Part shown: one piece after another, positions 32,564-51,556 of the stretch
Position numbering within the stretch: the first letter of the stretch is position 1
Layout of the letters: every line of letters starts with the position of its first letter
Source of the DNA: a virus
Lineage: Duplodnaviria; Caudoviricetes
Strand: one strand, 5' to 3'
IMG/VR virus record: IMGVR_UViG_3300021091_000011
DNA length: 64,000 nucleotides
Notes under the pieces: generated by a model
The model's input: the letters and a program-made list of their open reading frames with translations, nothing else
What the model was told of the DNA's origin: nothing
The model's database searches: none
Position numbers and translations under genes: made by a program

Positions 32564-32601
32564 GAGGCTACTCCACGCTAAGGTTGCAAACCTAGCCGCA
32601 G

Positions 32602-33011: not shown

Positions 33012-33035
33012 CGAAGCCTCCTAGTCTAGTTGGGG

Positions 33036-33078
33036 TTACACCATCCAAACGGTTTGGGACCGCTTGGAAAACCGAAAA
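33036..33078 (-). promoter_or_regulatory. Bipartite element, single copy
   Basis: TTTTCGGTTTTC-N13-ACCGTTTGGATGGTGTAA on the minus strand. Confidence 0.7.
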
Positions 33079-33081
33079 TCG

Positions 33082-33219
33082 TCAGTTCTTCGCGCTATCC
33101 TCGATGAAGAGGCTGCGTGCGCGGCGTACCGCGCGGATCGCGGCCTTGCGAGCCGCCTTGGATCGCACGATTCCCGCCTCGGTGCGGGCGGTGGCAATCT
33201 TGTTGTCGCGGAACTTCAT
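33082..33219 (-). CDS. 45-aa basic protein (island 1)
   Basis: MKFRDNKIATARTEAG... with GGAGG SD. The longer 33082-33639 call merely runs through the repeat cassette. Confidence 0.6.
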   Translation of the reverse strand: MKFRDNKIATARTEAGIVRSKAARKAAIRAVRRARSLFIEDSAKN

Positions 33220-33249
33220 CGAATCCTCCCTAGAAAGTGGTTTCTTGCG

Positions 33250-33348
33250 CTTACACCATCCAAACGGTTGATTCGGACTAGGAAAACCGAAAAAACGACG
33301 TCGATTTTCGGTTTTTCGTGGGTGGCCTAACCGTTTGGATGGTGTAAG
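33250..33348. promoter_or_regulatory. 99-bp bidirectional cassette (two inverted bipartite elements)
   Basis: Elements at 33250-33293 (-) and 33305-33348 (+), with central CGACGTCG. Divergent genes lie on both sides. Confidence 0.75.
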
Positions 33349-33379
33349 CGACACTATCAAAGCCCGACAGGAGTGAGTA

Positions 33380-33736
33380 ATGTCCGTCACGTTTTTCACA
33401 GGCTCGGACGCCGACTTTGACGCGCCCGACGTGAACTTCTCGAACGCCAACGCGCGCAATCTGCTCGCGCTTATCAAAATCGACGTCGAAGAAGACGACG
33501 GCCTTTGCGGTGAAATCCCGCACGACCAAATCGCTAACGTGCGCCGCGAGATTACCCGCGCACGCAATAGCGATAGGTCGCAAGCAGTCTCGCCCACCAC
33601 CATATCGCGTGAAGCCAACGGCCCACTCGTGATCGACATCGGCTCGACCGACGATCAAGTGCTCCGCAGGCTGGACGCACTAGATATGGTGCTAGATTAC
33701 GCGCAAAAGAAAGGTTGCACCGTCTATTGGGGATAA
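33380..33736 (+). CDS. Hypothetical protein (island 1)
   Basis: AGGAG SD; VNFSNANARNLLALI...VYWG. Confidence 0.7.
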   Translation: MSVTFFTGSDADFDAPDVNFSNANARNLLALIKIDVEEDDGLCGEIPHDQIANVRREITRARNSDRSQAVSPTTISREANGPLVIDIGSTDDQVLRRLDALDMVLDYAQKKGCTVYWG

Positions 33737-33980
33737 AGTGGGGATAAAGCCACTATCCAAGCGGCTAAAGCATCGTGGACCATTTAGTAAACCTGCAAAG
33801 AGGCGAGGAAATCATCGCCTACATTTTATTCCCTGACGTCGGCCAACGAAAATGGTTCGTTTGCTACTTCATGGGATTCATAGGACGCACAAATCTCGTT
33901 CAGATTCGCGTGATGGTAGGACATAGGACGCATTACCTAGTTATTAGGCGTGAGTGTATCCGCAAAATGAGGCTCATTCG

Positions 33981-34283
33981 ATGAATGATGAACATGATGA
34001 CGATCCCTTCGGCATTCTCGCGCTCTTAAAGCCGAAGCCCGCGAGCAAGCCTCGCACGGACTATATCTATGGGCAGGCTCAGGTCTGCGATGAAGCAATC
34101 TTAGAGGGGAACGCGCGCATCGGCGGGTTCGCCAAAGTCTATGGCGGGCACTTCAAAGGTGAAGCGCGCATCGGTGGATTCGCTAGAATCTACGGAGGCG
34201 TTTGGGACGGCACCGAAGGCGTTATCGTCAGCGGCTCTTGGAATGCCCCTAATCAGCCCCGCCTAGAAACACGGCCAATCTAG
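33981..34283 (+). CDS. Short hexapeptide-repeat protein
   Basis: GNARIGGFAKVYGG...GGVWDGTEGVIVSGSW is paralogous to the C-termini of 35336-36103 and 36141-37451. Start revised to 33981. Confidence 0.65.
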   Translation: MNDEHDDDPFGILALLKPKPASKPRTDYIYGQAQVCDEAILEGNARIGGFAKVYGGHFKGEARIGGFARIYGGVWDGTEGVIVSGSWNAPNQPRLETRPI

Positions 34284-34306
34284 CCCTGACGTTTTCAAGG
34301 TCAGTA

Positions 34307-35275
34307 TCACAATGGAGGCAAGATATGGGCATGAAATACTCCTTGAAGTATATCGTGCCCTAAAAGCGTGATAAAAACAACTACAAAGTTACGAGGACTC
34401 AGAACTCCTCGACCCACAAAGGGACCGAAGGCCGAACGAACACCACGTCCGAAACGTGGTTGGGACAAACCACGCATATATTTCGTTGTTCTTGCTTTTG
34501 CTTCGACGAGTTTATCCCATTGTTCTTCGGCATTTTGCTTTAGGCTCTCATATTTAGATGACTTTTCAAGGTTTAGACTGATACCGCCGATAGAGTAGTC
34601 AAACTCATTTGCAGTCCAATTATAAGCCAAGGCTTGCGCGGCGTTTACTAATGCTCCCCACAGGATAGAAGCCTTCCAAGCGGGCTTCTGTTGGCAGAGC
34701 CGATCTAAGTTGTTGAGTTCTTCCGTCTCGGGCGGGTGGGCGTTCCACTTCCAGAGGGCGATCTCTAAATACTCGGCGAACTCTGCATCCTCCCAAATGT
34801 AGCCGAAGACCTGATTGTAACAACCAACCTCGCCTTCGGACTTAGGTGGAGCGAACCTATAATTTTTGTCGGGGTTATTATCGCGTGTGAGAATCCGCAT
34901 TTTGTTAATCAGGTCTGCGACGCATCCAGAGTATGCGGATTCGGACGTGACGACGGACGCGGAGACGACGCCGAACTCTTGGACAGCACCTTCTTGTGCT
35001 GACGCAGCGGTTTCCCGAAAGAGCCAACGGATGCGATAGTCGCCGGGCGCGGCGTTAGACGGCACTTGAAGTGCGGCGTAATACTCGCCCACAGCCGGAT
35101 TGACCGGAGTGCGCGCATTGGAGCCGATCAAGACTTCGGCTTGCGTCGAGGGGTCTACCAGATAGATCGCGTAGGTGATTTGGTAGACGTTAAGGGGGTT
35201 GCCAGAGGCGTTGGACAGGAAGATGTCCAAGTCCCCACGACCGAGCAATTGGCCTTGCGTAAAGACGACGGACAT
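34307..35275 (-). CDS. Putative head-tail/neck structural protein
   Basis: Ig-like N-terminus (PVNPAVGEYYA...GDYRIRW), NEFDYSIGGISLNLEKSSKYESLK, late motif upstream. Function inferred from context only. Confidence 0.5.
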   Translation of the reverse strand: MSVVFTQGQLLGRGDLDIFLSNASGNPLNVYQITYAIYLVDPSTQAEVLIGSNARTPVNPAVGEYYAALQVPSNAAPGDYRIRWLFRETAASAQEGAVQEFGVVSASVVTSESAYSGCVADLINKMRILTRDNNPDKNYRFAPPKSEGEVGCYNQVFGYIWEDAEFAEYLEIALWKWNAHPPETEELNNLDRLCQQKPAWKASILWGALVNAAQALAYNWTANEFDYSIGGISLNLEKSSKYESLKQNAEEQWDKLVEAKARTTKYMRGLSQPRFGRGVRSAFGPFVGRGVLSPRNFVVVFITLLGHDILQGVFHAHILPPL

Positions 35276-35277
35276 AA

Positions 35278-35314
35278 AAAAGCCCCTAGTACGATCAACG
35301 CACTAGGGGCTTTT
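35278..35314. terminator. Perfect 13-bp hairpin with A/T tails, abutting ATG 35275
   Basis: AAAAGCCCCTAGT-11 nt-ACTAGGGGCTTTT. Confidence 0.7.
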
Positions 35315-35315
35315 G

Positions 35316-35329
35316 GATAGCCGTATTAG
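35316..35329 (-). promoter_or_regulatory. Putative late-promoter motif CTAATACGGCTATC
   Basis: 40 nt upstream of ATG 35275. Confidence 0.55.
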
Positions 35330-35335
35330 CGGGAA

Positions 35336-36103
35336 TCAGGCCGGAACGCCAGGCTCTCGCCACTTGCCCGAAGTGATCTCACCCTCGGAGCCGTCCCATT
35401 CGCCGCCGAGGATAATCGCCGTACCGCCGATTCTGGCCCTGCCAAAGCATCTGGCTTCGCCTCTAACCAAGGCACTCTCGTACACCTTGGCGTTGCCGTA
35501 CACCTCGGCGTCGTCCCACACCAAGGCGTTGCCGAACACTTGGGCATTGCCGTACACCTTGGCGTTGCCGTCCACATGGGCTATGCCATACACATAAGCT
35601 CTGTCATACACCTCGGCTTTGCCTCTCACCTCGGCGTTGCCGTACACCACGGCATTGCCGTACACCTGGGCGTCGCCGCCCACAATGGCGTTGTCGGACA
35701 CATTGGCGTCGCCGTACACCTTGGCGTTGCCGTACACCTTGGCGTCGTCCCACACCCAGGCTTCGTCGTACACCTTGGCGTTGCCTTTCACATCGGCTTT
35801 GCCGTACACCTGGGCGTCGTCGGACACCACGGCATTGCCGTACACCTGGGCGTCGTCGGACACCACGGCATTGCCGTACACCTTGGCGTCGCCCTTCACC
35901 AAGGCGTCGCCGAACACCTTGGCGTTTCCGGTCACAATGGCATTATCAAAGATGTGCTTCCCAGGGATGTTTACATCAACAGAAGCCGACCTGCTCAGAC
36001 CCTGAAGTCCAACAAGAATAGCCTTTCTCTCGGACGAACCGACGGGCAGGCTAGAAGCCAACTTGATCAGAGCAGAACGGTCGCTTGAACTCAACTTACG
36101 CAT
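35336..36103 (-). CDS. Hexapeptide-repeat (left-handed beta-helix-like) protein
   Basis: Many [AK]-V-Y-[GD]-[ND]-A repeats with an 18-nt DNA period. N-terminal SALIKLASSLPVGSSERKAIL motif. Confidence 0.8.
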   Translation of the reverse strand: MRKLSSSDRSALIKLASSLPVGSSERKAILVGLQGLSRSASVDVNIPGKHIFDNAIVTGNAKVFGDALVKGDAKVYGNAVVSDDAQVYGNAVVSDDAQVYGKADVKGNAKVYDEAWVWDDAKVYGNAKVYGDANVSDNAIVGGDAQVYGNAVVYGNAEVRGKAEVYDRAYVYGIAHVDGNAKVYGNAQVFGNALVWDDAEVYGNAKVYESALVRGEARCFGRARIGGTAIILGGEWDGSEGEITSGKWREPGVPA

Positions 36104-36140
36104 GGGGGGTCAAACCTTCTTGTGTTCTAGGCTAGGGGAC

Positions 36141-37451
36141 TCAGGCGGGAACGTCAGGGGCTTCCCACTTACCTGAAGTGATTTCGCCTTCGGAGCCGTC
36201 CCATTCGCCGCCGAGGATAATCGCCGTACCGCCGATGCGGGCGTCTCCGTATATCTCGGCGCGACCGTACACCTTGGCGTTGCCGTATATCTCGGCGTCG
36301 TCGTACACCATGGCAAGGCCATACACCTCGGCCCTGTCGTACACCCTGCCGCTAATCACCTTGGCGCCGCCGTACACCTGGGCGTCGTCGGACACCACGG
36401 CTTTGCCGTACACCTCGGCGCCGCCGTACACCTGGGCGTCTCCGTAAACTTCGGCGTTGTCGTACACATGGGCGTTGTCGTACACAATGGCTTTGCCGTA
36501 CACCTTGGCTTCGTCCCTCACCTGGGCGCCGCCGGACACCTTGGCGTTGTCGTACACCTTGGCCTTGCCCTTCACCTTGGCGTCGTCGGACACCTTGGCG
36601 TTGCCGGACACCTCGGCGTCTTCGTACACCCGAGCGTCGCTAAACACCGAGGCTTTGCCGTACACCTCGGCGCTGCCGTACACCTTGGCTTTGCCGTACA
36701 CCTGGGCGTTGTCGTACACATGGGCGTTGTCGTACACAATGGCTTCGTCCCTCACCTGGGCGCCGCCGGACACCTTGGCGTTGTCGTACACCTTGGCCTT
36801 GCCCTTCACCTTGGCGTTGCCGGACACCTTGGCGTTGCCGGACACCTCGGCGTCTTCGGACACCTTGGCGGCGTTGAAGATATGCTTTCCAGGAATGTTG
36901 TAATTTCCCGAAGCCTTCTTGCTTGAACTCTGAAGTCTAACAAGAATCGCCTTTCTCTCGGTAGAACCGACGGGAAGGCTAGAGGCCAAGCGAATCAACG
37001 CAGAACGGTCAGAGGCGGTAAGTTTACGCGAGGCCATTTTCTTAGCTCCATCTTCAAGATTCGTGAAACCTGAAAAGTCAACCATGTAAGTAGTTCCGTT
37101 GGGAAGCACGATCACGTCGCCCACGGACATACTCGTATGTCCGGTTTTTGAAATCGCGGGCATGGTGTTAGCCTCGCCGTAAGGCGACCAAACTTCACCC
37201 TGCATCATATTGAAGATTTCGCTCAGGTTCGTCTCGTCGACGAGCCCGATGCGTGTATGCGTATTTTCCAAATCAGCGAGAACGGCAGATAAGTCCAAGC
37301 CGCGCGTGCCACGGCTGAACTTGGAAAACAGACCACGATTGTAGTAGAGGATTTGGGTGCGGCCTCGACCGTAACGATCATCACCCGTGACACCACCTGC
37401 GCCTCTCAGGGTGTTGTAACCATTAAAGCCGCCGTCCGAAAAATAGTTCAT
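36141..37451 (-). CDS. YodL-like domain fused to hexapeptide repeats
   Basis: GHTSMSVGDVIVLPNGTTYMVDFSGF resembles the YodL signature, followed by the SALIRLASSLPVGSTERKAIL motif and repeats. Start revised to MNYFSDGG (37451). Confidence 0.7.
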   Translation of the reverse strand: MNYFSDGGFNGYNTLRGAGGVTGDDRYGRGRTQILYYNRGLFSKFSRGTRGLDLSAVLADLENTHTRIGLVDETNLSEIFNMMQGEVWSPYGEANTMPAISKTGHTSMSVGDVIVLPNGTTYMVDFSGFTNLEDGAKKMASRKLTASDRSALIRLASSLPVGSTERKAILVRLQSSSKKASGNYNIPGKHIFNAAKVSEDAEVSGNAKVSGNAKVKGKAKVYDNAKVSGGAQVRDEAIVYDNAHVYDNAQVYGKAKVYGSAEVYGKASVFSDARVYEDAEVSGNAKVSDDAKVKGKAKVYDNAKVSGGAQVRDEAKVYGKAIVYDNAHVYDNAEVYGDAQVYGGAEVYGKAVVSDDAQVYGGAKVISGRVYDRAEVYGLAMVYDDAEIYGNAKVYGRAEIYGDARIGGTAIILGGEWDGSEGEITSGKWEAPDVPA

Positions 37452-37520
37452 GGGTAATCCCACTTCGTTGAAGGGTCCCCCAAGCCCTAATGATAGCGAT
37501 ACTATCGAAAGGTACAGGTT

Positions 37521-38807
37521 ATGACCGACAAGCCGATCCCTTACACGCTCGCGCAAAACCCTGCACCGAATCCGGCTAATCAAGGCCAAGCCTATCAGCA
37601 GGACAAATCGGCGTTGGTTCAACGCATCATGGCCGCTTTCAGGTCCGTGCTGCCTTCTAACTACGTCGCGGCAACCAACGGCCCTTGGTACTCGTTGCAG
37701 TTTCAAGCCATGGCCGAGCAGTTGGCCGAGATTCAGATTAACGCCAGCGAACTCGCCACGGATTGCGATTGGGATTTCACGCGCTCTGATTTTTTGTGGG
37801 ACTTGCTCGGCGGCGTCGTGTTCCCGAACTCGTCCTCGGGCATCCCTTACATAAACGGCGATGTTGACTATCGGACGTTCCTGCGTCGAATGGTCGAGTT
37901 ACTATTGCAAGGCGCGACCAAAGCCTCGATTCAAGGCGGCATCGAAGCCTTAAACCCGAACGTCACCGCCTATGTGCTCGAAAGATACCTGCAAACGCCG
38001 CCTCGTGACCCGAACGGCGCGTACACGATTGCAGATCAGTTTGCGTTAGACATTCTAATCGACGCCGGAAACTCGTTCCCCGACAATCCGGCGATCTTAC
38101 AAGCCAACATCGAACTCGTACTGCGTGCGCTAAAGCCCGCCCATGTGCTTTGTTCGTATTCGACGCTCTTTCGAGATACTTTCCCGACGCCCGAAGATAA
38201 CGGCGATGCGTTTTCGTGGGACGTTGAGCCGTATTACTACGACGACACTCGCAAGTATTGTCTCGGTGCTAAAGAAATCAGCGGCATCAGCGGCGCGTTC
38301 TTAGCGCGTAGGGATTACTTCTCGGACCCGAGCGTGTCCTTCTCGTCCATTCCGTCCGGCGCGTTGCTTATGATCGGCACGGACCAATACCGTGTTCGCA
38401 GTACGCGGGCATTGCTTACAGGTGCCGATGCGGTCGCAAGGGCGTACACGACATCGCCCTCTGGACTTTCGGGCATGGTCGTCGCTCTCAATGCGACTGA
38501 TTTATACGATGCCGCTCAAGATTGGGGCGCAAGCGCAGTCGAAGGCGAAGTGATTACGATTTTGACGGGGCCGAACTCGGGCGCGTCGTATCGACTTGAG
38601 ACGGTGCTCGGTTCCGACGGTGGGCCTTTGGGCGAGGCCGGATTGTCCGGCAATCGCGTTCGATTGGCACCAACGATCCTCGTGCTGAATCGTCGAGCGT
38701 CGGCTGCTGCGTCTGGTTTGACGTACACGGTCACGGTGGACCGTTTAGGTCAACAGCCCGTGCGTGAAGTCTTGGCCGAAGACGTCGCTATTCAGTTTTG
38801 GTTATAG
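37521..38807 (+). CDS. Baseplate wedge subunit (gpI/gp47-48-like), plus strand
   Basis: FRSVLPSNYVA...TRSDFLWDLLG...DVDYRTFLRRMVELLLQGATKASIQ...LVLRALKPAHV is typical of tail protein I-like subunits. Confidence 0.65.
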   Translation: MTDKPIPYTLAQNPAPNPANQGQAYQQDKSALVQRIMAAFRSVLPSNYVAATNGPWYSLQFQAMAEQLAEIQINASELATDCDWDFTRSDFLWDLLGGVVFPNSSSGIPYINGDVDYRTFLRRMVELLLQGATKASIQGGIEALNPNVTAYVLERYLQTPPRDPNGAYTIADQFALDILIDAGNSFPDNPAILQANIELVLRALKPAHVLCSYSTLFRDTFPTPEDNGDAFSWDVEPYYYDDTRKYCLGAKEISGISGAFLARRDYFSDPSVSFSSIPSGALLMIGTDQYRVRSTRALLTGADAVARAYTTSPSGLSGMVVALNATDLYDAAQDWGASAVEGEVITILTGPNSGASYRLETVLGSDGGPLGEAGLSGNRVRLAPTILVLNRRASAAASGLTYTVTVDRLGQQPVREVLAEDVAIQFWL

Positions 38808-39201
38808 CCCACGGAGCTTCCGTGAGTACGGAGATTCCGTAGTCGTCCTGCAAGATACGCGAGCACTCGCTCACGGCTTCGTCTCGGGTCGTGAACGGAC
38901 CAATCTCCATGATTGAATCCGCGTCCATCAAGACCGCCTGAAAGAACGACGGGTCAGACCTGTATATACGAGCGACGGGCCGATTCGACCCGACCGACTT
39001 TAGCGCGATGGCAAGCGCATAAGGGTTGCTCTCGTACTCCGCGTACAAATCAATATCGACGATGAACGCGGCGTCGCCATTGTCGTAAATGGGTGGCGGG
39101 TAAAAAGAAGAAGGTTCCGCATGGAACAAAGCCCGCTCGACGCAAATGCGATTCAGCGGGTCAGCCAGCATCGCCTTTACTATCTTGTACCTTTCGGTCA
39201 C
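38788..39201 (-). CDS. Hypothetical protein
   Basis: 137-aa ORF converging on the plus-strand baseplate gene. Confidence 0.55.
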   Translation of the reverse strand: MTERYKIVKAMLADPLNRICVERALFHAEPSSFYPPPIYDNGDAAFIVDIDLYAEYESNPYALAIALKSVGSNRPVARIYRSDPSFFQAVLMDADSIMEIGPFTTRDEAVSECSRILQDDYGISVLTEAPWAITKTE

Positions 39202-39574
39202 GCAATTCTCCGAACTTTGCTTCTAGCATTTTAAGCCCCATACGCCTCACACGATACCCCAAAATCTCATCGTTGTCTCTATCGTTGTAGTAAAGGGCTT
39301 CAGCCAAGCAGTTAGCGAGTTCTTTTCGCGTCGCCTCAAGTACGGCGTTTCCAATCTCGTCTAATTCTTCCTCGGTGATCTTCGATAGCAACTGAAGCGA
39401 AAGCGAATCGTTGTCAATCGCGGCTTGCCTTATCGCCTCGCGCACGCTTTCAAACGATTCCGCGTAAAGTCCGGAAACGCGGTCGTACTCGTCTACGCAT
39501 CCCGGACAAACAAGGTTAGAGATAGATAGTAACCACTTCGCTGACGTTGCCATCGGATTCGACCTCGGGTTCAT
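39161..39574 (-). CDS. Hypothetical protein
   Basis: Helical ORF with CPGC near the N-terminus. Confidence 0.55.
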   Translation of the reverse strand: MNPRSNPMATSAKWLLSISNLVCPGCVDEYDRVSGLYAESFESVREAIRQAAIDNDSLSLQLLSKITEEELDEIGNAVLEATRKELANCLAEALYYNDRDNDEILGYRVRRMGLKMLEAKFGELRDRKVQDSKGDAG

Positions 39575-39674
39575 CCTCGCCGATGACGATCACACGGCGA
39601 GGCTCCCTCTCTTGCTTCTTTACCTCCACAGGGGGTGGTGGCGGTGGTAGCGGTAGTTGAAGATCGTTACTCAT
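39516..39674 (-). CDS. Small Pro/Glu-rich hypothetical protein
   Basis: MSNDLQLPLPPPPPPV..., GGGGA SD-like sequence. Confidence 0.45.
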   Translation of the reverse strand: MSNDLQLPLPPPPPPVEVKKQEREPRRVIVIGEDEPEVESDGNVSEVVTIYL

Positions 39675-39794
39675 AGATTCCCCCCTTCCATCTGAGAATT
39701 GCGTTTGCGAAGCGTTCTTCGCGCTCGATCTCGGTCCTGCGTTTGTGGCGCAGTACCCATATAATAGTTCCAATAGCCATTATTACGCCGACCG

Positions 39795-40220
39795 TCATCC
39801 CGCGTACCCCGCGATACCCTGAATCGACGTGCCGCCGCCGCCGCCGTGCATCCCGTCAAAGCGACCCGCGTTCGGGTTCGCCGTGAACCCGCGCACGGGC
39901 TTATCGAACTCACGGTGCTTCAGCTTGAAGCCGTAGGCCGCGAGTTCGGCCTTGATGTTCGCCACGATCTTTTGCGTCGTCGCGTTCAACACTTGAAGTT
40001 CGAACGCCGTGTATTCCTCACGGTCGTTGTCTGCCAAGTGCTCTGCGAACGCCTCGACCGAAGCAAACTCCGGCTCCTTCGGATTCAGCCCGCCGAAGCG
40101 GACCAGCCCCGTCTGAACAGGCTCGGCGACTTCACGCCGCATCGCACGCCGCTCGGCGCGCTCTTCGGCAATCTGGTCTTCACGGTCTTGATTGTGGGGG
40201 ACGAAACCGATGCGGCGCAT
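39795..40220 (-). CDS. Hypothetical protein (island 2)
   Basis: MRRIGFVPH... with AAGGAG SD supplied by the end of the bipartite element. Confidence 0.65.
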   Translation of the reverse strand: MRRIGFVPHNQDREDQIAEERAERRAMRREVAEPVQTGLVRFGGLNPKEPEFASVEAFAEHLADNDREEYTAFELQVLNATTQKIVANIKAELAAYGFKLKHREFDKPVRGFTANPNAGRFDGMHGGGGGTSIQGIAGYAG

Positions 40221-40229
40221 GGCAGGCTC

Positions 40230-40273
40230 CTTACACCATCCAAACGGTCGGCAACCGCTTGGAAAACCGAAAA
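40230..40273 (-). promoter_or_regulatory. Bipartite element, single copy in tandem with the cassette
   Basis: Same consensus and spacing as the other copies. Confidence 0.7.
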
Positions 40274-40295
40274 TCGGCGGGAGCACCATGCCCCG

Positions 40296-40394
40296 CTTAC
40301 ACCATCCAAACGGTTCAAGTCGGGCTAGAAAACCGAAAATCGACGTCACTTTTTCGGTTTTCTAGGGCCTGCCCGACCGTTTGGATGGTGTAAG
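40296..40394. promoter_or_regulatory. 99-bp bidirectional cassette
   Basis: Elements at 40296-40339 (-) and 40351-40394 (+), with an 11-nt core TCGACGTCACT. Confidence 0.75.
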
Positions 40395-40411
40395 CACAAC
40401 CTCAAGGAGCG

Positions 40412-40927
40412 ATGAACATGGAACACTTCAACGGAAAGGACATCTTCGCGGCAATCGCCGCGAAGTTCGACTACATCCCCCGCCCCCACACTACCGGCCA
40501 CGTCACGGACTACGACGTGTCTAGGCTGATCTCCGGACTTCTCGACTCCCTTGCGGAGATTGAGAACGTCTACTTCACCAAGCCAAACCGGAAAGGGCGC
40601 GACCGTCTGACCGCTGCGGAGTTCATCACGGAGACGGTCAATTTGACAATCGCGGACTACCGCGAAAACTATGAGCGGCCCGCGCCCGCCGATCTCATGC
40701 GCGGCTTGCAGGACATCGCGGCGACGCTCACGCAAGACGCCGTCCGCGAGGCTTGCGCCGCGTTGGAAGAGCGGGTCAGCGTTGACGTTTGCCACTTCTT
40801 TGGCGACATCGACGACTTGATGACGGGCAGGCTTGAAATCCCTCGGAATTTCCTGCGCGATCTGATTAGCGAGGGTGCGATGATTATCTCACAGGAGATC
40901 AAGAAGGAAGCGGCAAAGGCCGCTTAA
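40412..40927 (+). CDS. Hypothetical protein (island 2)
   Basis: AAGGAG SD immediately after the cassette. Confidence 0.7.
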   Translation: MNMEHFNGKDIFAAIAAKFDYIPRPHTTGHVTDYDVSRLISGLLDSLAEIENVYFTKPNRKGRDRLTAAEFITETVNLTIADYRENYERPAPADLMRGLQDIAATLTQDAVREACAALEERVSVDVCHFFGDIDDLMTGRLEIPRNFLRDLISEGAMIISQEIKKEAAKAA

Positions 40928-40942
40928 GGCTTCTTGATTGCG

Positions 40943-41698
40943 TCAGACGTAATCTTCGCCCTCAAGCGGGCGCACAGCAAAGACGGCTCGATAATCTCGG
41001 GCGGTCTTGCCATGAATCGAACGCACGGACTTGATCACGCCCTCGTGACGAGTCCCATCGGGCTTCTTGCCGCCTGCGTTCCCCTCATACGTCTCAAACT
41101 TGCCGTCCGGATTTAACGCCGTCGCCGCCAAAGTGACGTGGGCACCGTCGGCATCGCCCTCCGGCCCAATCACGACGATGTCGCCAGGCTGAATACCCGA
41201 CAGCGGGATTCGACGTGCGTTACCCTTCGACCAAACCCAAAGTCGATACGTCGAAGCGATGTGCTTCTTGCGGAGCAGAGGCTTCAGGCCGACCTGCCCA
41301 TAGCACCACGCCGCAAATGCACCGCACCACTCGAACATTCCGTTCTTCGTGTACGGAATGTTCGGTCTCGCAGTAGGCCCAATCTCCGCAGTAGACCAAC
41401 CTAAGCCGGACGCGCCACGGATATACTCGTCGATGCGAGCCGCGCCGTTTTTCGGGCCACCGGAAACAGGCTCCGTCACGCCGCGCATCCACTCGGTATG
41501 CGCGACCTGAATCAGCCGATCCATGCGCGACTGATGAGCGTCGAGCGCCGGAGGCTCGCAAACAAGAGCCTTCTCGTCTACGGGTTCGTCCGGATGGCCG
41601 TTGAGTTTCGCCATCTGGACTTCACGGCCCATACGACGCATCTCGGTCGCAACGGTTTCCGTCAGGGCTTCAAGGGCTAGGGAGATCAGAGGGTTCAA
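40943..41698 (-). CDS. CHAP-domain peptidoglycan hydrolase
   Basis: EWCGAFAAWCY (Cys), QPGDIVVI, GAHV (His) and ETYEGN. Confidence 0.75.
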   Translation of the reverse strand: MNPLISLALEALTETVATEMRRMGREVQMAKLNGHPDEPVDEKALVCEPPALDAHQSRMDRLIQVAHTEWMRGVTEPVSGGPKNGAARIDEYIRGASGLGWSTAEIGPTARPNIPYTKNGMFEWCGAFAAWCYGQVGLKPLLRKKHIASTYRLWVWSKGNARRIPLSGIQPGDIVVIGPEGDADGAHVTLAATALNPDGKFETYEGNAGGKKPDGTRHEGVIKSVRSIHGKTARDYRAVFAVRPLEGEDYV

Positions 41699-42152
41699 TG
41701 TGAGGTCTCCTGCTGCGTGGGATGTATTTCTCGTAGAAAGAATGGGTCAGCGTGCCGACCAAGTTCTTTCTACCAGCGTGGCAAACAGCCGGATTATCGG
41801 AAGGACCGCAGTAGAAGTAAGCGTCATGTGCCCATGCCGGAACAGGCAGGGAGTCGAAAGTAGCGAGTATGCCGAGTGTCAGGTGATGGGGCTTCCAGAA
41901 TCGAGGCGATTCAGGGCACTTGGTCGCGTAAGCGTTGGGGTAACTCAGCGCGTCAAAGAGCGAATAGCCAAACTTCTTAGAGCGATTCACGGCGGTCTGC
42001 AAAACCACCGCGCCGTCTTGGGAGTCGATGCCGGACTCGCAACGGACTACGTTGGTTGCGAGTTTGATAGTCTTGATCGTGTCAAGCGATTTCGGGATTT
42101 CGGGGATGATGTGGGCTTTTGCTGCCAAAACAAATGCAATGAAAGAGAGCAT
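41670..42152 (-). CDS. SleB-like cell-wall hydrolase with hydrophobic N-terminus
   Basis: VVRCESG...GAVVLQTAVNRS...YPNAYA...AYFY...HSFY follows the Hydrolase_2 pattern. Confidence 0.55.
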   Translation of the reverse strand: MLSFIAFVLAAKAHIIPEIPKSLDTIKTIKLATNVVRCESGIDSQDGAVVLQTAVNRSKKFGYSLFDALSYPNAYATKCPESPRFWKPHHLTLGILATFDSLPVPAWAHDAYFYCGPSDNPAVCHAGRKNLVGTLTHSFYEKYIPRSRRPHIEPSDLPSP

Positions 42153-42153
42153 T

Positions 42154-42270
42154 TCAGCGTCCTTCGGTTAGGGCGCAAATAAGCGCGAGCACCGTCCAAA
42201 GGATCAGCGCCACGCTAGGCGAGATCAATGGAACGGCTTTACGTCTGATTTCAGGGTCATAACGGCGCAC
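42154..42270 (-). CDS. 38-aa single-transmembrane peptide (not in the ORF track)
   Basis: Manual translation from GTG: MRRYDPEIRRKAVPLISPSVALILWTVLALICALTEGR. Stop lies 1 nt before the SleB-like ATG. Confidence 0.4.
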   Translation of the reverse strand: MRRYDPEIRRKAVPLISPSVALILWTVLALICALTEGR

Positions 42271-42312
42271 GGAGTAATCTTACCGCGCACTATGTAGGTT
42301 TATGCCCCTTAT

Positions 42313-42588
42313 TTAGTCAAACTGATTTCCACCTTGGGCTGCTTCAAGCAATCCAGAGTATGAAACGTATTGGCCTTCGCCGAAAGCGGGCGGTGCCGCA
42401 CCGACGTCATCGAACGCGCGTGCAAAAATCAGGAATACGGCGAGAATGTCCTGCTTTGAGTAGCCCTCGTCACGAAGGCTATTTACGAATGCCAACGAGT
42501 TCGCGCCAAGTGCCTGCGACAAAAGTTCTTCAGGCGGCAGGTTGTCGACGTACACCTGCCAATCTTCCAACGTGATCGGATATTCCAT
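42313..42588 (-). CDS. Hypothetical protein
   Basis: 91 aa, in a TAATG overlap with the helicase gene. Confidence 0.6.
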   Translation of the reverse strand: MEYPITLEDWQVYVDNLPPEELLSQALGANSLAFVNSLRDEGYSKQDILAVFLIFARAFDDVGAAPPAFGEGQYVSYSGLLEAAQGGNQFD

Positions 42589-45713: not shown

Positions 45714-46374
45714 AGATCGTTTCGCCCCACTCAGAGTCTAAAGAACCGTAATCAGGACGAAGCGACAAAGGCTGCTCCATGTATTCGCCACGGTCGCGGC
45801 CCTTGTGCTTTTCAGCACGGTCGTACTTGCTCTTGTCCCGATGCGCGCCGCCACCCGAAGGCGGGTTCAGGATCATCGCACGCGCAGCAGGGTCACGCTG
45901 CGGCGGCAACTTGCCTTTGATCTTGACCAAGGATTTACCCGCGACACGCTTCGTGCCACCCTCGGCGTAACCTTGAGCGGCTTCCCACGCCGTAAAGCCG
46001 TCGTCAAAACCGTACTTGGCGAGGCGGTCGTGCAAATGCGGCGGCAAGTCGACGAGCTTCGCCAAATACGCCGAACCCAAGTCGTCCTCGCCGACCACGC
46101 CAAGCCAATAGTCTTTGTTCATCGCGTTGGGCATATCGGCGATGCCGAACAAATACCCATCCGTCGAAACCAGCGCCCAAACCTCGGTGAACGCTGCGGT
46201 CTTGCGACCTTTGCCCGTGAAATAACCTTCAGGCCCACGCTTACAATGGGGGCTACCAGGCTTCTTATACTTGCACCAGCGCGACCATGCAATCGCCCAC
46301 GCTTTAGACTCGGGCATCCCCGCGTCTAAGCCCTCTTGAACGTAGCGTTCAACATCAGCAGGTAAGTTTGGCAT
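45703..46374 (-). CDS. Putative virion protein with ChaB-like N-terminal helix pair
   Basis: LPADVERYVQEGLDAGMPESKAWAIAWSRWCK; basic C-terminus. Confidence 0.45.
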   Translation of the reverse strand: MPNLPADVERYVQEGLDAGMPESKAWAIAWSRWCKYKKPGSPHCKRGPEGYFTGKGRKTAAFTEVWALVSTDGYLFGIADMPNAMNKDYWLGVVGEDDLGSAYLAKLVDLPPHLHDRLAKYGFDDGFTAWEAAQGYAEGGTKRVAGKSLVKIKGKLPPQRDPAARAMILNPPSGGGAHRDKSKYDRAEKHKGRDRGEYMEQPLSLRPDYGSLDSEWGETIYDA

Positions 46375-46415
46375 TTACGGCTCCTGGAATTCGCCTATGT
46401 TCGACAATAGGCAAA

Positions 46416-47237
46416 CTACAACGCCGTGTTCGCTTCCTCGCCGCTCGCCACATCGTTCATCAAGTTCGGGTACGCCGCGAGTGCTTCGGTATTGGACGCA
46501 GCATTGACCGACACGGTGCCGTCCTCAGAGGGCACATGGTAGATCGAATCCACCGTGTAAACGATCTTCGCCACAGTCAGGTCGTCGTCGTAACGGCTCT
46601 CGTCGTAAATCATCGAAGAAACGCCGTAGCCTCGAACAGCCCAACATAAATCGTCCAACTCCTGCTCCAACTGCTCACGCAGGTCGCAGAGTTTCAGAAT
46701 GCGGTGCTCAATCGCGTTGCGCTTGAACTTGATTTCTTTGCTCACCCACTTGCGGGACCGCAGGATCAAATCGCCCGTAGGTCCGTCGGGCGTAATCACG
46801 GGTCCACCGCTTCGGCTAGGCTTGAACTTTTGAATCGTAGAATCAGACGTTGTAGGCGGGCCACCATACGAATAGGCAAATCCCACCGATGTCGAAACGC
46901 CGCCCGAAGGCTGCGAGGATTGACCATCGACGCTATCGGGCAACGCCTTGTCCGGTGACAAGAACATCGAGATATCAAACGGATTGCCGCCCAAAGACAC
47001 ATAGGCCGAAAACAGTTTGCCGAGACTCGTTAAAGGCTCGACGGTGATGCTCAGGCGCGTTTCATTCGTGACGCCGTTCGTAGAACCGTAACGAATCGTC
47101 ACGTCGCCGATTCGACCCATCTCGGCCAGAATCGCCAACTCACGTTTGCTCGCGTCACGCCGTTCGTCAAGGATGAACTTGCGGTACGCACGCCATTGAC
47201 CCTCACGAAATCGTCCTGTCCATGAAAACGAAGGCAT
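46416..47237 (-). CDS. Putative structural protein
   Basis: 273 aa, in an overlapping chain with 47237-49624 below a late motif. Confidence 0.55.
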   Translation of the reverse strand: MPSFSWTGRFREGQWRAYRKFILDERRDASKRELAILAEMGRIGDVTIRYGSTNGVTNETRLSITVEPLTSLGKLFSAYVSLGGNPFDISMFLSPDKALPDSVDGQSSQPSGGVSTSVGFAYSYGGPPTTSDSTIQKFKPSRSGGPVITPDGPTGDLILRSRKWVSKEIKFKRNAIEHRILKLCDLREQLEQELDDLCWAVRGYGVSSMIYDESRYDDDLTVAKIVYTVDSIYHVPSEDGTVSVNAASNTEALAAYPNLMNDVASGEEANTAL

Positions 47238-49624: not shown

Positions 49625-49838
49625 GCTTCGCCTCCAACTTATTCAGCGTGAGTTGAAGGTCCGTAATCTTGGCTTTATCCGCATCAATCTGAACCTGAAT
49701 GACCTGCTCTAATCGCTTGAACAGGTTGATCTCAGCGTCCAGACCCGCCTTGCGCTCCGGCTTTTCCTGCCAAGCGTCGAGCGGCACACCTGCTTCTCGC
49801 AAGGCTTTTTCGAGTTCTTCTTTAGTGCGGTACGCCAT
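49614..49838 (-). CDS. Small coiled-coil protein
   Basis: 74 aa; first gene after the late motif at 49854. Confidence 0.6.
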   Translation of the reverse strand: MAYRTKEELEKALREAGVPLDAWQEKPERKAGLDAEINLFKRLEQVIQVQIDADKAKITDLQLTLNKLEAKRGR

Positions 49839-49853
49839 ACATGATCGTACCGC

Positions 49854-49867
49854 GATAGCCGCGTTAG
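49854..49867 (-). promoter_or_regulatory. Putative late-promoter motif CTAACGCGGCTATC
   Basis: Identical to the copy at 5658-5671. An 8-bp hairpin (49827-49853) encloses the ATG. Confidence 0.6.
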
Positions 49868-50082
49868 GGCGTCGGGCTTGCCTTGACGATCACCTTGACG
49901 GTATCGACGGGCAAGATCACCGTCAGGCTTCGACGGATATCCCAATCCACCGAGAGATACGTCTGCCCATAGGACGAAGAAATCTCCCGCACCTTGCCTC
50001 GCGTGCCAGCGGGGATCGGATCGGGATCGTCGGGCATATCGACGAGTTCAATGGTATCACCAATCGAGATATCCGGTTCCAT
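49864..50082 (-). CDS. DUF4314-like protein
   Basis: IGDTIELVDMPDDPDPIPAGTRGKV...VDWD..RSL. Start revised to MEPDIS. Confidence 0.7.
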   Translation of the reverse strand: MEPDISIGDTIELVDMPDDPDPIPAGTRGKVREISSSYGQTYLSVDWDIRRSLTVILPVDTVKVIVKASPTP

Positions 50083-50290
50083 GAGGGGTCCACCTTTTCT
50101 TGAAAGTTTCAATGCACCGTTCAGCGTATTCACGGCTTGGCCGAGTACCCAAACAGGGTTCAAAGTCCTCGTCAGCCTTTCCGCATGGGCCTTTTACCGT
50201 GACCCAAGTGTAAAACGCCGAGTTAACTTTGCGACGGTCCCGAATGAGAACCGTGTAGCCGTCGCGCTCTAGCACGGTCCACGGCTTCAT
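50057..50290 (-). CDS. Hypothetical protein
   Basis: 77 aa, in a TGATG overlap with the upstream gene. Confidence 0.5.
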   Translation of the reverse strand: MKPWTVLERDGYTVLIRDRRKVNSAFYTWVTVKGPCGKADEDFEPCLGTRPSREYAERCIETFKKRWTPHGTGYLDW

Positions 50291-51078
50291 CAGCCCGCCA
50301 GAGCCTCAAGCGCACTCTCGCGCACCGTCACGTCCGCGTTCGTCGCAGCCGTGACCGCCGCACCACCCGCCTTCAGAATCCAGCCCGCGTTCGGGTCCAA
50401 GCGGTAACTCACGAACCGCGCGACGGGCAGCGTGGCGCGAATCGCGTCCTTTGCGACCGTCTTGGCACCGCTCTTCGTCGCGGGCGCAGGGCCGTTCGCG
50501 GCAGGCGTGATCACCTTGCTCCCGATGCTCAACCCGCTCAGGTTGATCTGACCGTCGATAGGCGCGCGGGCGTCACCCGTGCAGGCTCGGCATCGGCACT
50601 TGTGCGCCGTACCCGCCACACACTTGTAGACCCGCGCACCGCGCACCGTCTCCGACGGGCCGATCAGGTCGTCAATGACCAGCGGCTCGTACACATGGTC
50701 CGTGGTCGCCTCGTTCGTGCCGTTCAGCGTCTCCATGAACGACGCCACCAACTCGTCCCGCGCCGCTTGCGCGTCAGCCAGCGTCACCGCCCGCTCGACC
50801 GCGCTCTTGCCGCGACCGTCCATGCCCGTCTTGCCGTCGATCAGGCGGGCGAGGTCCGCGTCCGTCATGGCGACCACCTTGTCGAGCGACCGCTGGACCA
50901 AGCGGTCGTAGCGGAAGCCCGTCACGATCACGGTCAACACCGTGTCGTCGCCGTACACGACCCCGCCCTTCTCGACGCCCTGCTTCGTCGTCAGGAGAGA
51001 AGTGAAGGTCCCCTTGTTCGCGTTGGCGAGGGCGAGGGCGTTGGCGAGCGAAAGAGCGTTGGAAGAAACCGCGTTCAT
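50290..51078 (-). CDS. Hypothetical protein (island 3)
   Basis: GGAG SD before MNAVSS; contains CxxxxxxxCxCxxC. Confidence 0.7.
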   Translation of the reverse strand: MNAVSSNALSLANALALANANKGTFTSLLTTKQGVEKGGVVYGDDTVLTVIVTGFRYDRLVQRSLDKVVAMTDADLARLIDGKTGMDGRGKSAVERAVTLADAQAARDELVASFMETLNGTNEATTDHVYEPLVIDDLIGPSETVRGARVYKCVAGTAHKCRCRACTGDARAPIDGQINLSGLSIGSKVITPAANGPAPATKSGAKTVAKDAIRATLPVARFVSYRLDPNAGWILKAGGAAVTAATNADVTVRESALEALAG

Positions 51079-51128
51079 AAGGCACTCCAAAAAAGCAGGT
51101 AGAACCGTGAGCGACCGCCTATCGGCCC

Positions 51129-51171
51129 CTCACACCATCCAAACGGTCGGCACCGCCCGAAAAACCGAAAA
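51129..51171 (-). promoter_or_regulatory. Bipartite element, variant copy (spacer 1 nt shorter, GTGAG end)
   Basis: CTCACACCATCCAAACGGT...AAAACCGAAAA on the plus strand. Confidence 0.65.
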
Positions 51172-51183
51172 TCGGCAATCGAC

Positions 51184-51426
51184 TCAGAGATTGTTGGCCG
51201 CAGCCTCAATCTCTTCGGTGGGAACGCCGTCCCACGAGCGGCGGGGACGGAACCCCCGCGTCTCCTTGTACGAGTCCTCGTACTCGGAGATAGCGAGGAA
51301 CCGCCGAAGTTCCTCGCCCGAGTGGACCCCCATCGACGCCCAATGCGCCGCGTCCTCGACCATCTTAAAGATGGCGTTGTGCTTGGCGTTGATCTCGGCG
51401 GCGTACTGCGAAGCGGTCATGGTCAT
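51184..51426 (-). CDS. Small phage protein with YKETRGFRPR motif (island 3)
   Basis: AAGGAG SD. The D.YK...GFRPR pattern is common in small phage early proteins. Confidence 0.65.
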   Translation of the reverse strand: MTMTASQYAAEINAKHNAIFKMVEDAAHWASMGVHSGEELRRFLAISEYEDSYKETRGFRPRRSWDGVPTEEIEAAANNL

Positions 51427-51457
51427 GTTCGTTGCTCCTTGAAAGTGATTCGTTGTG

Positions 51458-51556
51458 CTTACACCATCCAAACGGTTCGGGACCGCCCGAAAAACCGAAA
51501 ATCGACGTCACTTTTTCGGTTTTTTCAGCCCGAATCAACCGTTTGGATGGTGTAAG
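51458..51556. promoter_or_regulatory. 99-bp bidirectional cassette
   Basis: Elements at 51458-51501 (-) and 51513-51556 (+); the core TCGACGTCACT is identical to the island 2 core. Confidence 0.75.

What the first reader, a model, noticed from the sequence alone, without database searches (positions are those of the whole stretch)
33036..51556. Nine-copy bipartite element forming exactly 99-bp bidirectional cassettes
Seen: consensus TTTTCGGTTTTY-N13-ACCGTTTGGATGGTGTAAG at 33036, 33250, 33305, 40230, 40296, 40351, 51129, 51458 and 51513. Eight copies have exactly 18 nt between CGG and ACC and one has 17; the spacer sequence varies. Three inverted pairs are each 99 bp, with an 11-nt core containing GACGTC. 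Every copy points to a start codon within ~10-50 nt. Inference: an early promoter. TGGTGTAAG resembles an extended -10 (TGnTATAAT), and the T-rich box falls at about -40 to -50 with no conserved -35, so a phage activator, a virion RNAP or an unusual host sigma may be needed. The fixed geometry and palindromic core also fit a shared regulator site or a recombination site.
Basis: partly seen in the sequence, partly recalled or inferred. Interest (0 to 1): 0.8.

Follow-up and report, generated by a model that had tools for sequence, protein, structure and literature searches.

The report
Phage sigma-type promoter in back-to-back modules
The nine repeats are copies of one phage-specific promoter that switches on small accessory genes of an uncultivated giant lake phage.

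Summary
There are nine copies of ACCGTTTGGATGGTGTAAG (at most 1 mismatch, 0 expected by chance). Each has GnCGATTTTCGGTTTTYY upstream at a fixed distance, and there are three 99-bp back-to-back pairs. All copies are intergenic and point at genes.

In 8 independent cassettes of relatives and in the window (40230-), the Shine-Dalgarno sequence AAGGAG(G) begins inside the last bases of the motif. Transcription must therefore start within GTGTAAG, not 5-8 nt after it.

Three other huge-phage lineages have their own many-copy promoter modules. All four lineages share one core, (G/C)GTT-N17/18-CCGTW, and all four carry a homologue of the window's sigma-like gene (7118-8008). I therefore read:
- GGTT, inside the T-rich box, as the -35 element
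- CCGTY as an ECF-like -10 element
- the transcription start at about G15 of the 19-mer

The gene at 7118-8008 is the best candidate in the window, but this link is not shown.

Relatives have inserted, lost or moved genes exactly at these copies. This resembles the PeSL cassettes of T4-type phages, but without a sigma70-type promoter or a terminator.

The scan had already noted the same promoter class elsewhere in this genome (e1-5374548). No RNA data could be found.

The parts
33035..33083 (-). Promoter copy 1 (unpaired). It has the 19-mer at 33035-33053 (last base C) and the T-box at 33068-33078. The predicted start is near 33039. It drives the 131-aa gene 32616-33011.
   Evidence: The stop codon of the preceding gene overlaps the upstream edge of the element.
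33250..33298 (-). Promoter copy 2, the left half of back-to-back module 1. The predicted start is near 33254. It drives the 45-aa gene 33082-33219.
33300..33348 (+). Promoter copy 3, the right half of module 1 (module 33250-33348, 99 bp). The predicted start is near 33344. It drives the 118-aa gene 33380-33736.
40230..40278 (-). Promoter copy 4 (unpaired). The Shine-Dalgarno sequence AAGGAG starts at base 17 of the 19-mer, and the ATG lies 9 nt after the motif. It drives the 141-aa gene 39795-40220.
   Evidence: The same gene family has a 22-nt leader in L046.
40296..40344 (-). Promoter copy 5, the left half of module 2. It has no gene of its own and reads into copy 4, which lies 66 bp downstream. 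It is probably the scar of a lost cassette.
   Evidence: A similar tandem occurs in L111.
40346..40394 (+). Promoter copy 6, the right half of module 2 (module 40296-40394, 99 bp). It drives the 169/171-aa gene 40412-40927.
51129..51176 (-). Promoter copy 7 (unpaired). Its box spacing is 1 nt shorter, its 19-mer ends TGTGAG, and its leader is 50 nt. It drives the 262-aa gene 50290-51078.
   Evidence: The orthologue in L098/L105 has the standard spacing.
51458..51506 (-). Promoter copy 8, the left half of module 3. It drives the 80-aa gene 51184-51426.
51508..51556 (+). Promoter copy 9, the right half of module 3 (module 51458-51556, 99 bp). It drives the 295-aa gene 51575-52462.
7118..8008 (-). 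Sigma-like gene (295/296 aa): an N-terminal beta domain followed by sigma regions 2 and 4. It is the candidate reader of the promoter class. That link is an inference and has not been shown.
   Evidence: Pfam Sigma70_r2 matches only weakly (E 0.09). A family profile hits PDB 3mzy sigma-H at E 3.8e-7 across both domains. The AlphaFold model (pLDDT 81.5) matches almost only ECF sigmas in the PDB, with weak E-values. Homologues occur in the lineages that share the promoter core.

Best explanation
Each copy is a promoter of about 49 bp, read by bacterial RNA polymerase carrying a phage-encoded sigma factor of the two-domain (ECF-like) type.

Proposed anatomy:
- The GGTT inside TTTTCGGTTTT is the -35 element.
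- CCGTY, at the start of the 19-mer, is the -10 element. The two are held 17 nt apart.
- Transcription starts at about G15 of the 19-mer, inside GTGTAAG. Every mRNA of the class therefore begins with roughly GUAAG, followed by a short A/C-rich leader and a strong Shine-Dalgarno sequence.
- The rest of the conserved sequence (GnCGATTTT upstream, GGATGGTGTAAG around the start) is specific to this lineage. It may tune promoter strength or bind a further factor.

The promoters head tightly packed cassettes of small, non-structural genes of unknown function. These sit in three islands inside the virion-gene region. Two promoters placed back to back at the smallest possible distance give the 99-bp module.

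Because the copies are near-identical, relatives have gained, lost and moved genes at them.

Status of each step:
- Shown from sequence: the repeats, their rigid geometry, their position before genes, the transcribed status of the last motif bases, the shared core in four lineages, and the cassette differences between relatives.
- Inferred: the exact start site, which sigma reads the promoter, and the timing of expression.
For: (1) Nine copies against 0 expected. All are intergenic and all point at a start codon.

(2) I collected 86 distinct copies from about 30 related contigs. Of these, 84 have identical box spacing. CGGTTTT and most of the 19-mer are invariant, while the 13-nt spacer carries almost no information.

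(3) 75 copies have an SD and an ORF, with a median of 23 nt from the motif to the start codon. In 7 distinct copies from 5 gene families, plus one more in G004, the sequence AAGGAG(G) starts at A17/A18 of the motif and the ATG follows 9-13 nt after it. Four of the five families have ordinary 16-22-nt leaders in other contigs. Several of these copies belong to divergent pairs and have no same-strand promoter upstream.

(4) Relatives that carry a homologue of the window's sigma have their own repeated modules with the same core:
- G010: GGGTTCC-N15-CCGTA, 29 copies against 1 in the control.
- G009: GGTTCAACTC...TCTCCGTATAG, 24 copies at N18.
- G008: CGTTAAAA-N7-CTGCTTCCGTAAGTA, 17-18 copies.
- In the window, GGTT-N17-CCGTW occurs 9 times, against 0-3 at other spacings.

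(5) In G010 the SD starts pile up 13-17 nt after the first C of CCGT and never closer. One 209-aa exonuclease gene has its ATG at index 13 with no SD, as a leaderless mRNA starting at the predicted +1 would.

(6) With a start at G15, CGGTTTT spans -35 to -29 and CGTYTG spans -12 to -7, which is the canonical geometry of the sigma70 family. A CGT core in the -10 element is typical of ECF sigmas (general knowledge).

(7) The window encodes a sigma-like protein.

(8) The virion genes use a different motif, TAAYRCGGCTATC, so there are at least two promoter classes.

(9) The genes behind this class in relatives are non-structural: AAA_5, VWA/CobT-like, a phosphoesterase, an HTH protein and an exonuclease.
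Against: No transcript data exist, so the start site is inferred only from Shine-Dalgarno positions and from geometry.

The -35 core GGTT is not the AAC typical of ECF promoters.

The 12 bases GGATGGTGTAAG around the predicted start are far more conserved than the start region of a sigma promoter usually is. This is not explained.

The sigma gene in the window lies inside a baseplate (late) operon, which sits oddly with a role in switching on early-looking genes. Its possible own promoter, GTTACA-17-TAGTAT, matches the sigma70 consensus at only 8 of 12 positions.

Earlier notes report two more sigma-like genes elsewhere in this genome. I could not read them, and either could be the true reader.

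LR745208 has a homologue of the sigma but shows no enrichment of the core motif.

The copies used for the logo were found with the 18-mer itself, so conservation inside that box is partly a result of how they were collected.
Confidence: 0.72

Rival explanations
1. TGgTGTAAG is an extended -10 element and the T-rich box is an UP-like or activator site at -40 to -50. Transcripts start 5-8 nt after the motif. The reader is host polymerase with an activator, or a virion polymerase.
For: TGnTGTAAG resembles TGnTATAAT at 4 of 6 hexamer positions (sequence). G008's module also contains GTAAG, and with a canonical geometry its TAAGTA could serve as a -10 element. In the window's lineage the SD offsets rise sharply at 9 nt after the motif.
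Against: TGTAAG has G at the -11 and -7 positions, the two bases that a sigma70-type -10 element needs most (general knowledge). A start 5-8 nt downstream removes the SD from the mRNA in 9-13 of 75 cassettes. These include divergent-pair members in which a perfect AAGGAGG begins inside the motif. The ACCGTYTGG part would have no role in this model, although CCGTW is the part shared with other lineages. No T7-like polymerase was found in three large relatives, although that search rang in no control genome and so says little.
Confidence: 0.1
2. The conserved blocks are mainly the binding site of a phage DNA-binding regulator, either a repressor that shuts the class off or an activator. This site would be laid over a simpler core promoter. 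The palindromic centre of the 99-bp module would be a shared site controlling both directions.
For: The conservation extends well beyond the core shared across lineages. GnCGATTTT and GGATGGTGTAAG are lineage-specific and nearly invariant. The pair distance takes only two values, 81 or 82 nt, in 20 distinct pairs. The two T-boxes lie about two helical turns apart (sequence).
Against: The unpaired copies (38 of 86) keep the same boxes, so the functional unit is the single directional element. The centre GACGTC arises simply from two upstream edges (CGA) abutting. No regulator gene was identified. This reading does not exclude the sigma promoter and could be true in addition to it.
Confidence: 0.12
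3. The element is chiefly a recombination or mobility signal: a site for a recombinase, or the end of a small mobile cassette. Any promoter activity would be secondary.
For: Genes differ between relatives exactly at the copies. One small gene family sits in island 1 in some phages and in island 3 in others. Three different genes follow the same promoter in different phages. There are tandem copies with nothing between them, and truncated half copies in L116.
Against: Copies mark only the 5' side of cassettes and always point into the gene. The 3' sides carry no repeat. G001's promoter at 6446- heads a 12-gene run without further copies. None of the large proteins scanned matched a recombinase family. 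Ordinary homologous recombination between 49-99-bp repeats is enough to explain the pattern, as was shown for PeSLs (PMC2839356).
Confidence: 0.05

Closest known systems
PeSL (promoter-early stem-loop) cassettes of T4-type phages (Arbiol et al. 2010, PMC2839356)
   Same: Both are many near-identical copies of a short regulatory module in front of small genes of unknown function. Both lie in variable regions of a large lytic phage genome, and both are the points where close relatives differ by insertion, deletion and replacement of genes.
   Different: PeSLs carry a strong sigma70-like promoter plus a stem-loop terminator. Here the promoter is not sigma70-like and there is no terminator: unpaired copies abut the previous stop codon. 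About half the copies are fused back to back at a fixed 81/82-nt distance. Mini-circles could not be tested.
Private promoter classes of phage-encoded sigma factors, such as SPO1 gp28 and gp33/34, T4 gp55 late promoters and phiEco32 gp36 (general knowledge; SPO1 cascade mentioned in PMC13401047)
   Same: Both involve a highly conserved, non-host promoter consensus with fixed box spacing, repeated before one temporal or functional class of genes, in a phage that encodes its own sigma-like proteins and no RNA polymerase.
   Different: The consensus (GGTT-N17-CCGTY) is new. The sigma is a divergent ECF-like protein with an extra N-terminal domain, encoded inside a baseplate operon. The pairing of sigma and promoter is untested. 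A common core is shared across several deeply diverged lineages of uncultivated huge phages.
Bacterial ECF (group 4) sigma promoters, such as GGAAC-N16/17-CGT (general knowledge)
   Same: Both are two short boxes with a rigid 16-17-nt spacer, have a CGT core in the -10 element, and are read by a two-domain sigma.
   Different: The -35 core reads GGTT(T/C) rather than GGAAC. The conserved sequence runs on through the start site. The promoters occur in tens of copies per genome rather than a handful.

Membership tests
Bipartite promoter of a sigma70-family (ECF-like) sigma | Two conserved boxes separated by a spacer of fixed length and free sequence | tested here: met
   84 of 86 distinct copies share one spacing, and the spacer columns carry 0.0-0.7 bit. 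GGTT-N17-CCGTW occurs 9 times in the window, against 0-3 at other spacings.
Bipartite promoter of a sigma70-family (ECF-like) sigma | Intergenic, on the same strand as a gene and just upstream of it | tested here: met
   8 of 9 window copies and 75 of 86 family copies have an SD and an ORF within 90 nt, with a median of 23 nt.
Bipartite promoter of a sigma70-family (ECF-like) sigma | Transcription starts 6-8 nt downstream of the -10 box | tested here: inconclusive
   No RNA run was listed. Indirect evidence: the SD can begin at base 17 of the 19-mer. In G010 the SD never starts closer than 13 nt to CCGT, and one gene has its ATG at index 13 without an SD. All of this is consistent with a start about 12-13 nt after the first C of CCGT.
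Bipartite promoter of a sigma70-family (ECF-like) sigma | ECF-type box sequences (-35 AAC, -10 CGT) | tested here: inconclusive
   The -10 core CGT is invariant in 84/84 (G4) and 83/84 (C3, T5) copies. The -35 reads GGTT, not AAC.
Bipartite promoter of a sigma70-family (ECF-like) sigma | A cognate sigma is encoded and binds these boxes | tested here: inconclusive
   A sigma-like gene is present at 7118-8008, and its homologues co-occur with the shared core in G001, G004, G008, G009 and G010. Binding cannot be tested here. LR745208 has a homologue but no enrichment of the core.
   The hexamer TGTAAG has G at both positions in 61-77 of 84 copies.
   A start 5-8 nt after the motif lies behind the SD start in 9-13 of 75 cassettes.
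PeSL cassettes of T4-type phages | Strong sigma70-like early promoter | tested here: not met
   The boxes do not match TTGACA/TATAAT. The sigma70 scan of 32000-42500 found 2 sites against 4.5 expected, none of them at the copies.
PeSL cassettes of T4-type phages | Stem-loop terminator as part of the module | tested here: not met
   Most unpaired copies start 0-3 nt after the stop codon of the previous gene, as in cTGA-GTCGATTTT. No terminator-like site was found at the copies, apart from a weak 5-pair hit between the tandem copies.
PeSL cassettes of T4-type phages | Copies flank small unknown genes in variable regions and mark indels between relatives | tested here: met
   All 8 downstream proteins have no Pfam hit. 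PHROGs gave one hit, to a family of unknown function. Gene content differs at the copies between the window, G001, L047, L088 and L031/L098/L105.
PeSL cassettes of T4-type phages | Recombination between copies yields mini-circles | not testable with these tools
   Only assembled contigs of DNA runs were available, and they break at the repeats.
Site-specific recombination site (integron attC-like) | Repeat at the 3' end or at both ends of each cassette, independent of gene direction | tested here: not met
   Copies lie only at the 5' ends and always point into the gene. A 12-gene run follows one copy in G001.

The most novel reading that the evidence does not exclude
One sigma-promoter pair is conserved across several deeply diverged lineages of uncultivated huge phages. 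An ECF-like sigma encoded in the baseplate operon would read a common core, (G/C)GTT-N17/18-CCGTW, and each lineage has dressed this core with its own long invariant flanks and leader modules. If that sigma is made late with the baseplate proteins and carried in the virion, the class would be fired immediately on the next infection by an injected sigma factor. No such mechanism is known.
Probability: 0.12. Interest if true: 0.8.

Novelty: new variant of a known kind. Interest (0 to 1): 0.45.

Why it matters
Huge phages without their own RNA polymerase are thought to steer the host enzyme with phage sigma factors, but no promoter of such a sigma has been defined for the uncultivated lineages.

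This work gives a concrete, testable promoter model with its boxes, spacing, start site and a candidate sigma. It also gives a core motif that can be used to find the non-structural regulon in at least four lineages from sequence alone.

The identical copies also explain how these phages shuffle their accessory genes.

The 49-bp element and its sigma could serve as an orthogonal expression pair if the link is confirmed.

Tried and rejected
RNA evidence: no RNA holder was listed for the islands, so expression and 5' ends could not be examined.

Read laying on four DNA runs: only assembled contigs were available, and they end at the promoter repeats. The joints listed between copies are repeat artefacts of assembly and say nothing about recombination.

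Whole genome: none is held for this window. I did not walk the 80 kb to the two other sigma-like genes that earlier notes report. One look-up extended the sequence by 10 kb beyond the window and found no further copy there.

Sigma-54 type reading: rejected. There is no GG/GC pair at the -24/-12 spacing, and the start would lie far behind the SD.

Bacteroidota-type promoter (TTTG...TAnnTTTG): considered because the 19-mer holds CCGTTTG. Rejected because the TA is missing.

N4-like hairpin promoter: rejected, because no stable hairpin exists in the 19-mer.

Cruciform or structural palindrome: rejected, because the spacers of the two halves of a pair are unrelated.

Virion or single-subunit RNA polymerase:
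- The Pfam RNA_pol family gave no hit in G008-G010, but it also rang in no control genome, so this is weak.
- A 3246-aa ORF next to the promoter array of a relative has no Pfam or PDB match.
- The large window ORFs scanned had no polymerase domain.

Nearest large relative in GenBank, LR745208: it has neither the 18-mer, nor the late motif, nor enrichment of the core.

Literature searches found no description of this motif.


Full report
**What the window is.** The window has about 55% G+C and most genes lie on the minus strand. It encodes a baseplate J protein, an SNF2 helicase and many large proteins with no family match. The nearest GenBank relative is a 485-kb uncultured phage, LR745208, at 31-45% protein identity. 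No whole genome is held. Sequencing runs that hold the stretch are lake and freshwater metagenomes. This is part of an uncultivated huge phage.

**The observation.** The 19-mer ACCGTTTGGATGGTGTAAG occurs nine times with at most one mismatch, against none expected. TTTTCGGTTTT occurs exactly nine times, always beside a 19-mer.
- When the copies are aligned, the element runs from GnCGATTTTCGGTTTTYY through a 13-nt G+C-rich spacer of free sequence to the 19-mer. Eight copies have identical spacing and one (51129-) is 1 nt shorter.
- Three pairs stand back to back as 99-bp units: 33250-33348, 40296-40394 and 51458-51556.
- Eight copies are followed by a Shine-Dalgarno sequence and a start codon 9-50 nt after the motif. 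The ninth (40296-) sits 66 bp upstream of another copy and has no gene of its own.
- The eight downstream proteins have no Pfam hit. PHROGs gave one hit, to a family of unknown function.

**The family of copies.** Exact-pattern scans of viral and metagenome collections gave about 30 contigs that carry the two-box element.
- One of them, G001 (47 kb), is about 82% identical in DNA to window 34-34264 and collinear with it. It has the same three promoters at the orthologous island.
- Among 86 distinct copies, 84 have the same box spacing. CGGTTTT, C3-G4-T5, T7-G8 and G15-T16 are invariant or nearly so, while the spacer columns carry almost no information. The copies were collected with the 18-mer, so conservation inside that box is partly a result of the search. 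The upstream box and the spacing were not used for collection.
- Twenty distinct back-to-back pairs show only two distances, 81 or 82 nt.
- The 38 unpaired copies keep CGA at -27 to -25. Most begin within three bases of the stop codon of the preceding gene, as in cTGA-GTCGATTTT.
- The functional unit is therefore the single directional element of about 49 bp. Cassettes are packed head to tail without terminators, and the 99-bp palindrome is simply two units abutting at their upstream edges. The spacers of the two halves are unrelated, so the pair is not a structural hairpin.

**Where transcription starts.**
- Of 75 distinct copies with an SD and an ORF, the median distance from the motif end to the start codon is 23 nt.
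- In seven distinct copies from five unrelated gene families, the sequence directly after ...GTGTAAG is GAG or GAGG, and the ATG follows 9-13 nt after the motif. AAGGAG(G) therefore begins at A17/A18 of the motif.
- An eighth case, with a new gene, is in G004.
- Four of the five families occur in other contigs with ordinary 16-22-nt leaders. For one family the short form is visibly a deletion of the first 12-14 leader bases.
- Several short-leader copies belong to divergent pairs and have no same-strand promoter upstream. One of them heads a run of about 12 overlapping genes in G001. Read-through from elsewhere therefore cannot supply the mRNA.
- A ribosome-binding site that is selected must be transcribed, so transcripts start no later than about base 17-19 of the 19-mer.
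- A start 5-8 nt after TGTAAG would leave 9-13 of the 75 cassettes without their SD.
- TGTAAG also has G where a housekeeping -10 hexamer needs A (-11) and T (-7).

**Other lineages.**
Pfam Sigma70_r2 matches only weakly. A profile of 37 homologues hits a solved sigma-H over both domains (E 3.8e-7). An AlphaFold model (pLDDT 81.5) matches almost only ECF sigmas in the PDB, with weak E-values but good local fits to region 2.
- The family is widespread on contigs of 100-600 kb.
- I read three large relatives in full and looked for their most repeated words. Each has its own many-copy module:
  - G008 (sigma 47% identical): CGTTAAAA-N7-CTGCTTCCGTAAGTA, 17-18 copies, some back to back.
  - G009 (41%): GGGGGGTTCAACTC...TATCTCCGTATAG, about 24 copies.
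  - G010 (40%): GGGTTCC-N15-CCGTA, 29 copies against 1 for the reversed control pattern.
- Aligned on CCGT, all four lineages share (G/C)GTT, then 17 nt (18 in G009), then CCGT(A/T), then a conserved GTG(A/T) about 10-11 nt further on.
- In the window, GGTT-N17-CCGTW occurs nine times, against 0-3 at other spacings.
- In G010, where leaders are short, SD starts pile up 13-17 nt after the first C of CCGT and never closer. In G009 the minimum is 12, and in the window's lineage it is 15.
- One G010 copy is followed, with no SD, by the ATG of a 209-aa DEDD-type exonuclease exactly at index 13. This is what a leaderless mRNA starting at the predicted +1 would look like.
- The genes behind the class in relatives are non-structural: AAA_5, VWA/CobT-like, a metallophosphoesterase, an HTH protein and an exonuclease.

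**The model.**
- Placing the start at about G15 of the 19-mer puts CGGTTTT at -35 to -29 and CGTYTG at -12 to -7. This is the canonical geometry of the sigma70 family. The CGT core in the -10 box is typical of ECF sigmas (general knowledge).
- The T-rich box is therefore the -35 element, not an UP-like element at -40 to -50. The first half of the 19-mer is the -10 element, and GTGTAAG spans the start site.
The sigma of the baseplate operon is the candidate I could test for presence. Its region 2 is the best conserved part.
- This link is an inference. Earlier notes report two more sigma-like genes 79 kb beyond the window, which I could not read. LR745208 has a homologue of the sigma but no enrichment of the core.
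- The sigma gene lies in a late-looking operon. Its upstream region holds a conserved GTTACA-17-TAGTAT that matches the sigma70 consensus at only 8 of 12 positions, so its own expression time is open.
- The virion genes carry a different motif, TAAYRCGGCTATC, at 5658, 32602, 35316, 49854 and 57567 on the minus strand. There are thus at least two phage promoter classes.
- Whether the bipartite class is early or middle cannot be decided.
- The strong conservation of GGATGGTGTAAG around the start, and of GnCGATTTT upstream, is lineage-specific and remains unexplained. A further DNA-binding factor is possible.

**Cassette flux.**
- The 44/45-aa gene MKFRDNK... follows a promoter in island 1 in the window, G001, L047 and L088. 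In L031/L098/L105 it forms an extra promoter-plus-gene unit in the orthologue of island 3.
- The plus-strand promoter of island 1 is followed by one gene family in the window and L088, by a different family in L047, and by two extra, translationally coupled genes ahead of the window's family in G001.
- Tandem copies with nothing between them occur in the window (40296-/40230-) and in L111. L116 holds two truncated half copies facing each other.
- This is the pattern described for PeSL modules of T4-type phages (PMC2839356). Here, however, the promoter is not sigma70-like and no terminator is part of the unit.
- Copies lie only at the 5' ends of cassettes and always point into the gene. This argues against a dedicated recombination site. 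Homologous recombination between repeats is sufficient to explain the pattern.

**Comparison and novelty.**
- The kind is known: a private promoter class of a phage sigma, repeated before accessory genes and acting as a shuffling point.
- New here are the consensus, the fixed back-to-back module, the evidence that the conserved block runs through the start site, and the shared core across four huge-phage lineages.
- An earlier follow-up in this scan (e1-5374548) reached the same general reading for 13 copies elsewhere in this genome, so the finding is not new to the scan. I reached the box assignment, the start site and the cross-lineage core independently.
- Literature searches found no description of the motif.

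**Verdict.** This is a real and well-supported promoter class. Interest is moderate.

Noticed in passing
window 5658-5670, 32602-32614, 35316-35328, 49854-49866, 57567-57579 (all minus strand): A second motif, TAAYRCGGCTATC, lies directly upstream of virion-gene runs. There are five exact copies, and 11 with up to 2 mismatches against 3.5 expected. At 32602 its TAA lies right after the last gene of island 1. It is probably the late promoter class, as earlier notes also say.
   Followed up: partly
window 7118-8008 (-) and 8009-8099: The sigma-like gene has an extra N-terminal beta-strand domain of about 110 aa and lies inside the baseplate operon. The 90-nt region upstream of it is conserved in five relatives, down to the one with 63% sigma identity. 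That region includes an invariant TTAGTAT and a possible GTTACA-17-TAGTAT promoter.
   Followed up: partly
L174-L184 (G008), e.g. G008 39451-39590, 94156-94300: The G008 lineage has a different module: CGTTAAAA-N7-CTGCTTCCGTAAGTA, followed by a 45-60-nt leader. The leader contains a conserved small hairpin (gcccCACAGGggc) and CAA just before the SD.
   Followed up: partly
L197 (G010) 12588-12650, i.e. G010 92588-92650: A DEDD-type exonuclease gene (209 aa) starts 13 nt after the CCGT of its promoter and has no Shine-Dalgarno sequence. Its mRNA is probably leaderless.
   Followed up: partly
L116 5212-12023 and L117 3629-10442: A 3246-aa ORF lies next to the promoter array of a close relative. 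The 2271 residues I could read have no Pfam or PDB sequence match.
   Followed up: partly
L116 1182-1290: Two truncated promoter copies face each other. Each is cut just after ACCGTT(T), and about 30 nt of unrelated sequence lies between them. This may be a recombination or inversion scar inside the -10 box.
   Followed up: no
L085 1850-2090, L032 1430-1690, L030 2500-2580, L116 380-640: Promoter copies ending TGTGAG are followed not by a gene but by a conserved unit beginning (a/g)(a/g)cggttctttgaCAGATTGTGCG. Its 3' end, CGCACAATCTG, pairs with that 5' arm and abuts the next promoter. This is the small structured RNA array already noted for this genome (e1-5374535).
   Followed up: no
window 33954-37706: These are beta-helix (YdcK/bactofilin-like hexapeptide repeat) paralogues. 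A related strain in run X4 carries a 1.6-kb replacement between 35332 and 36943.
   Followed up: no
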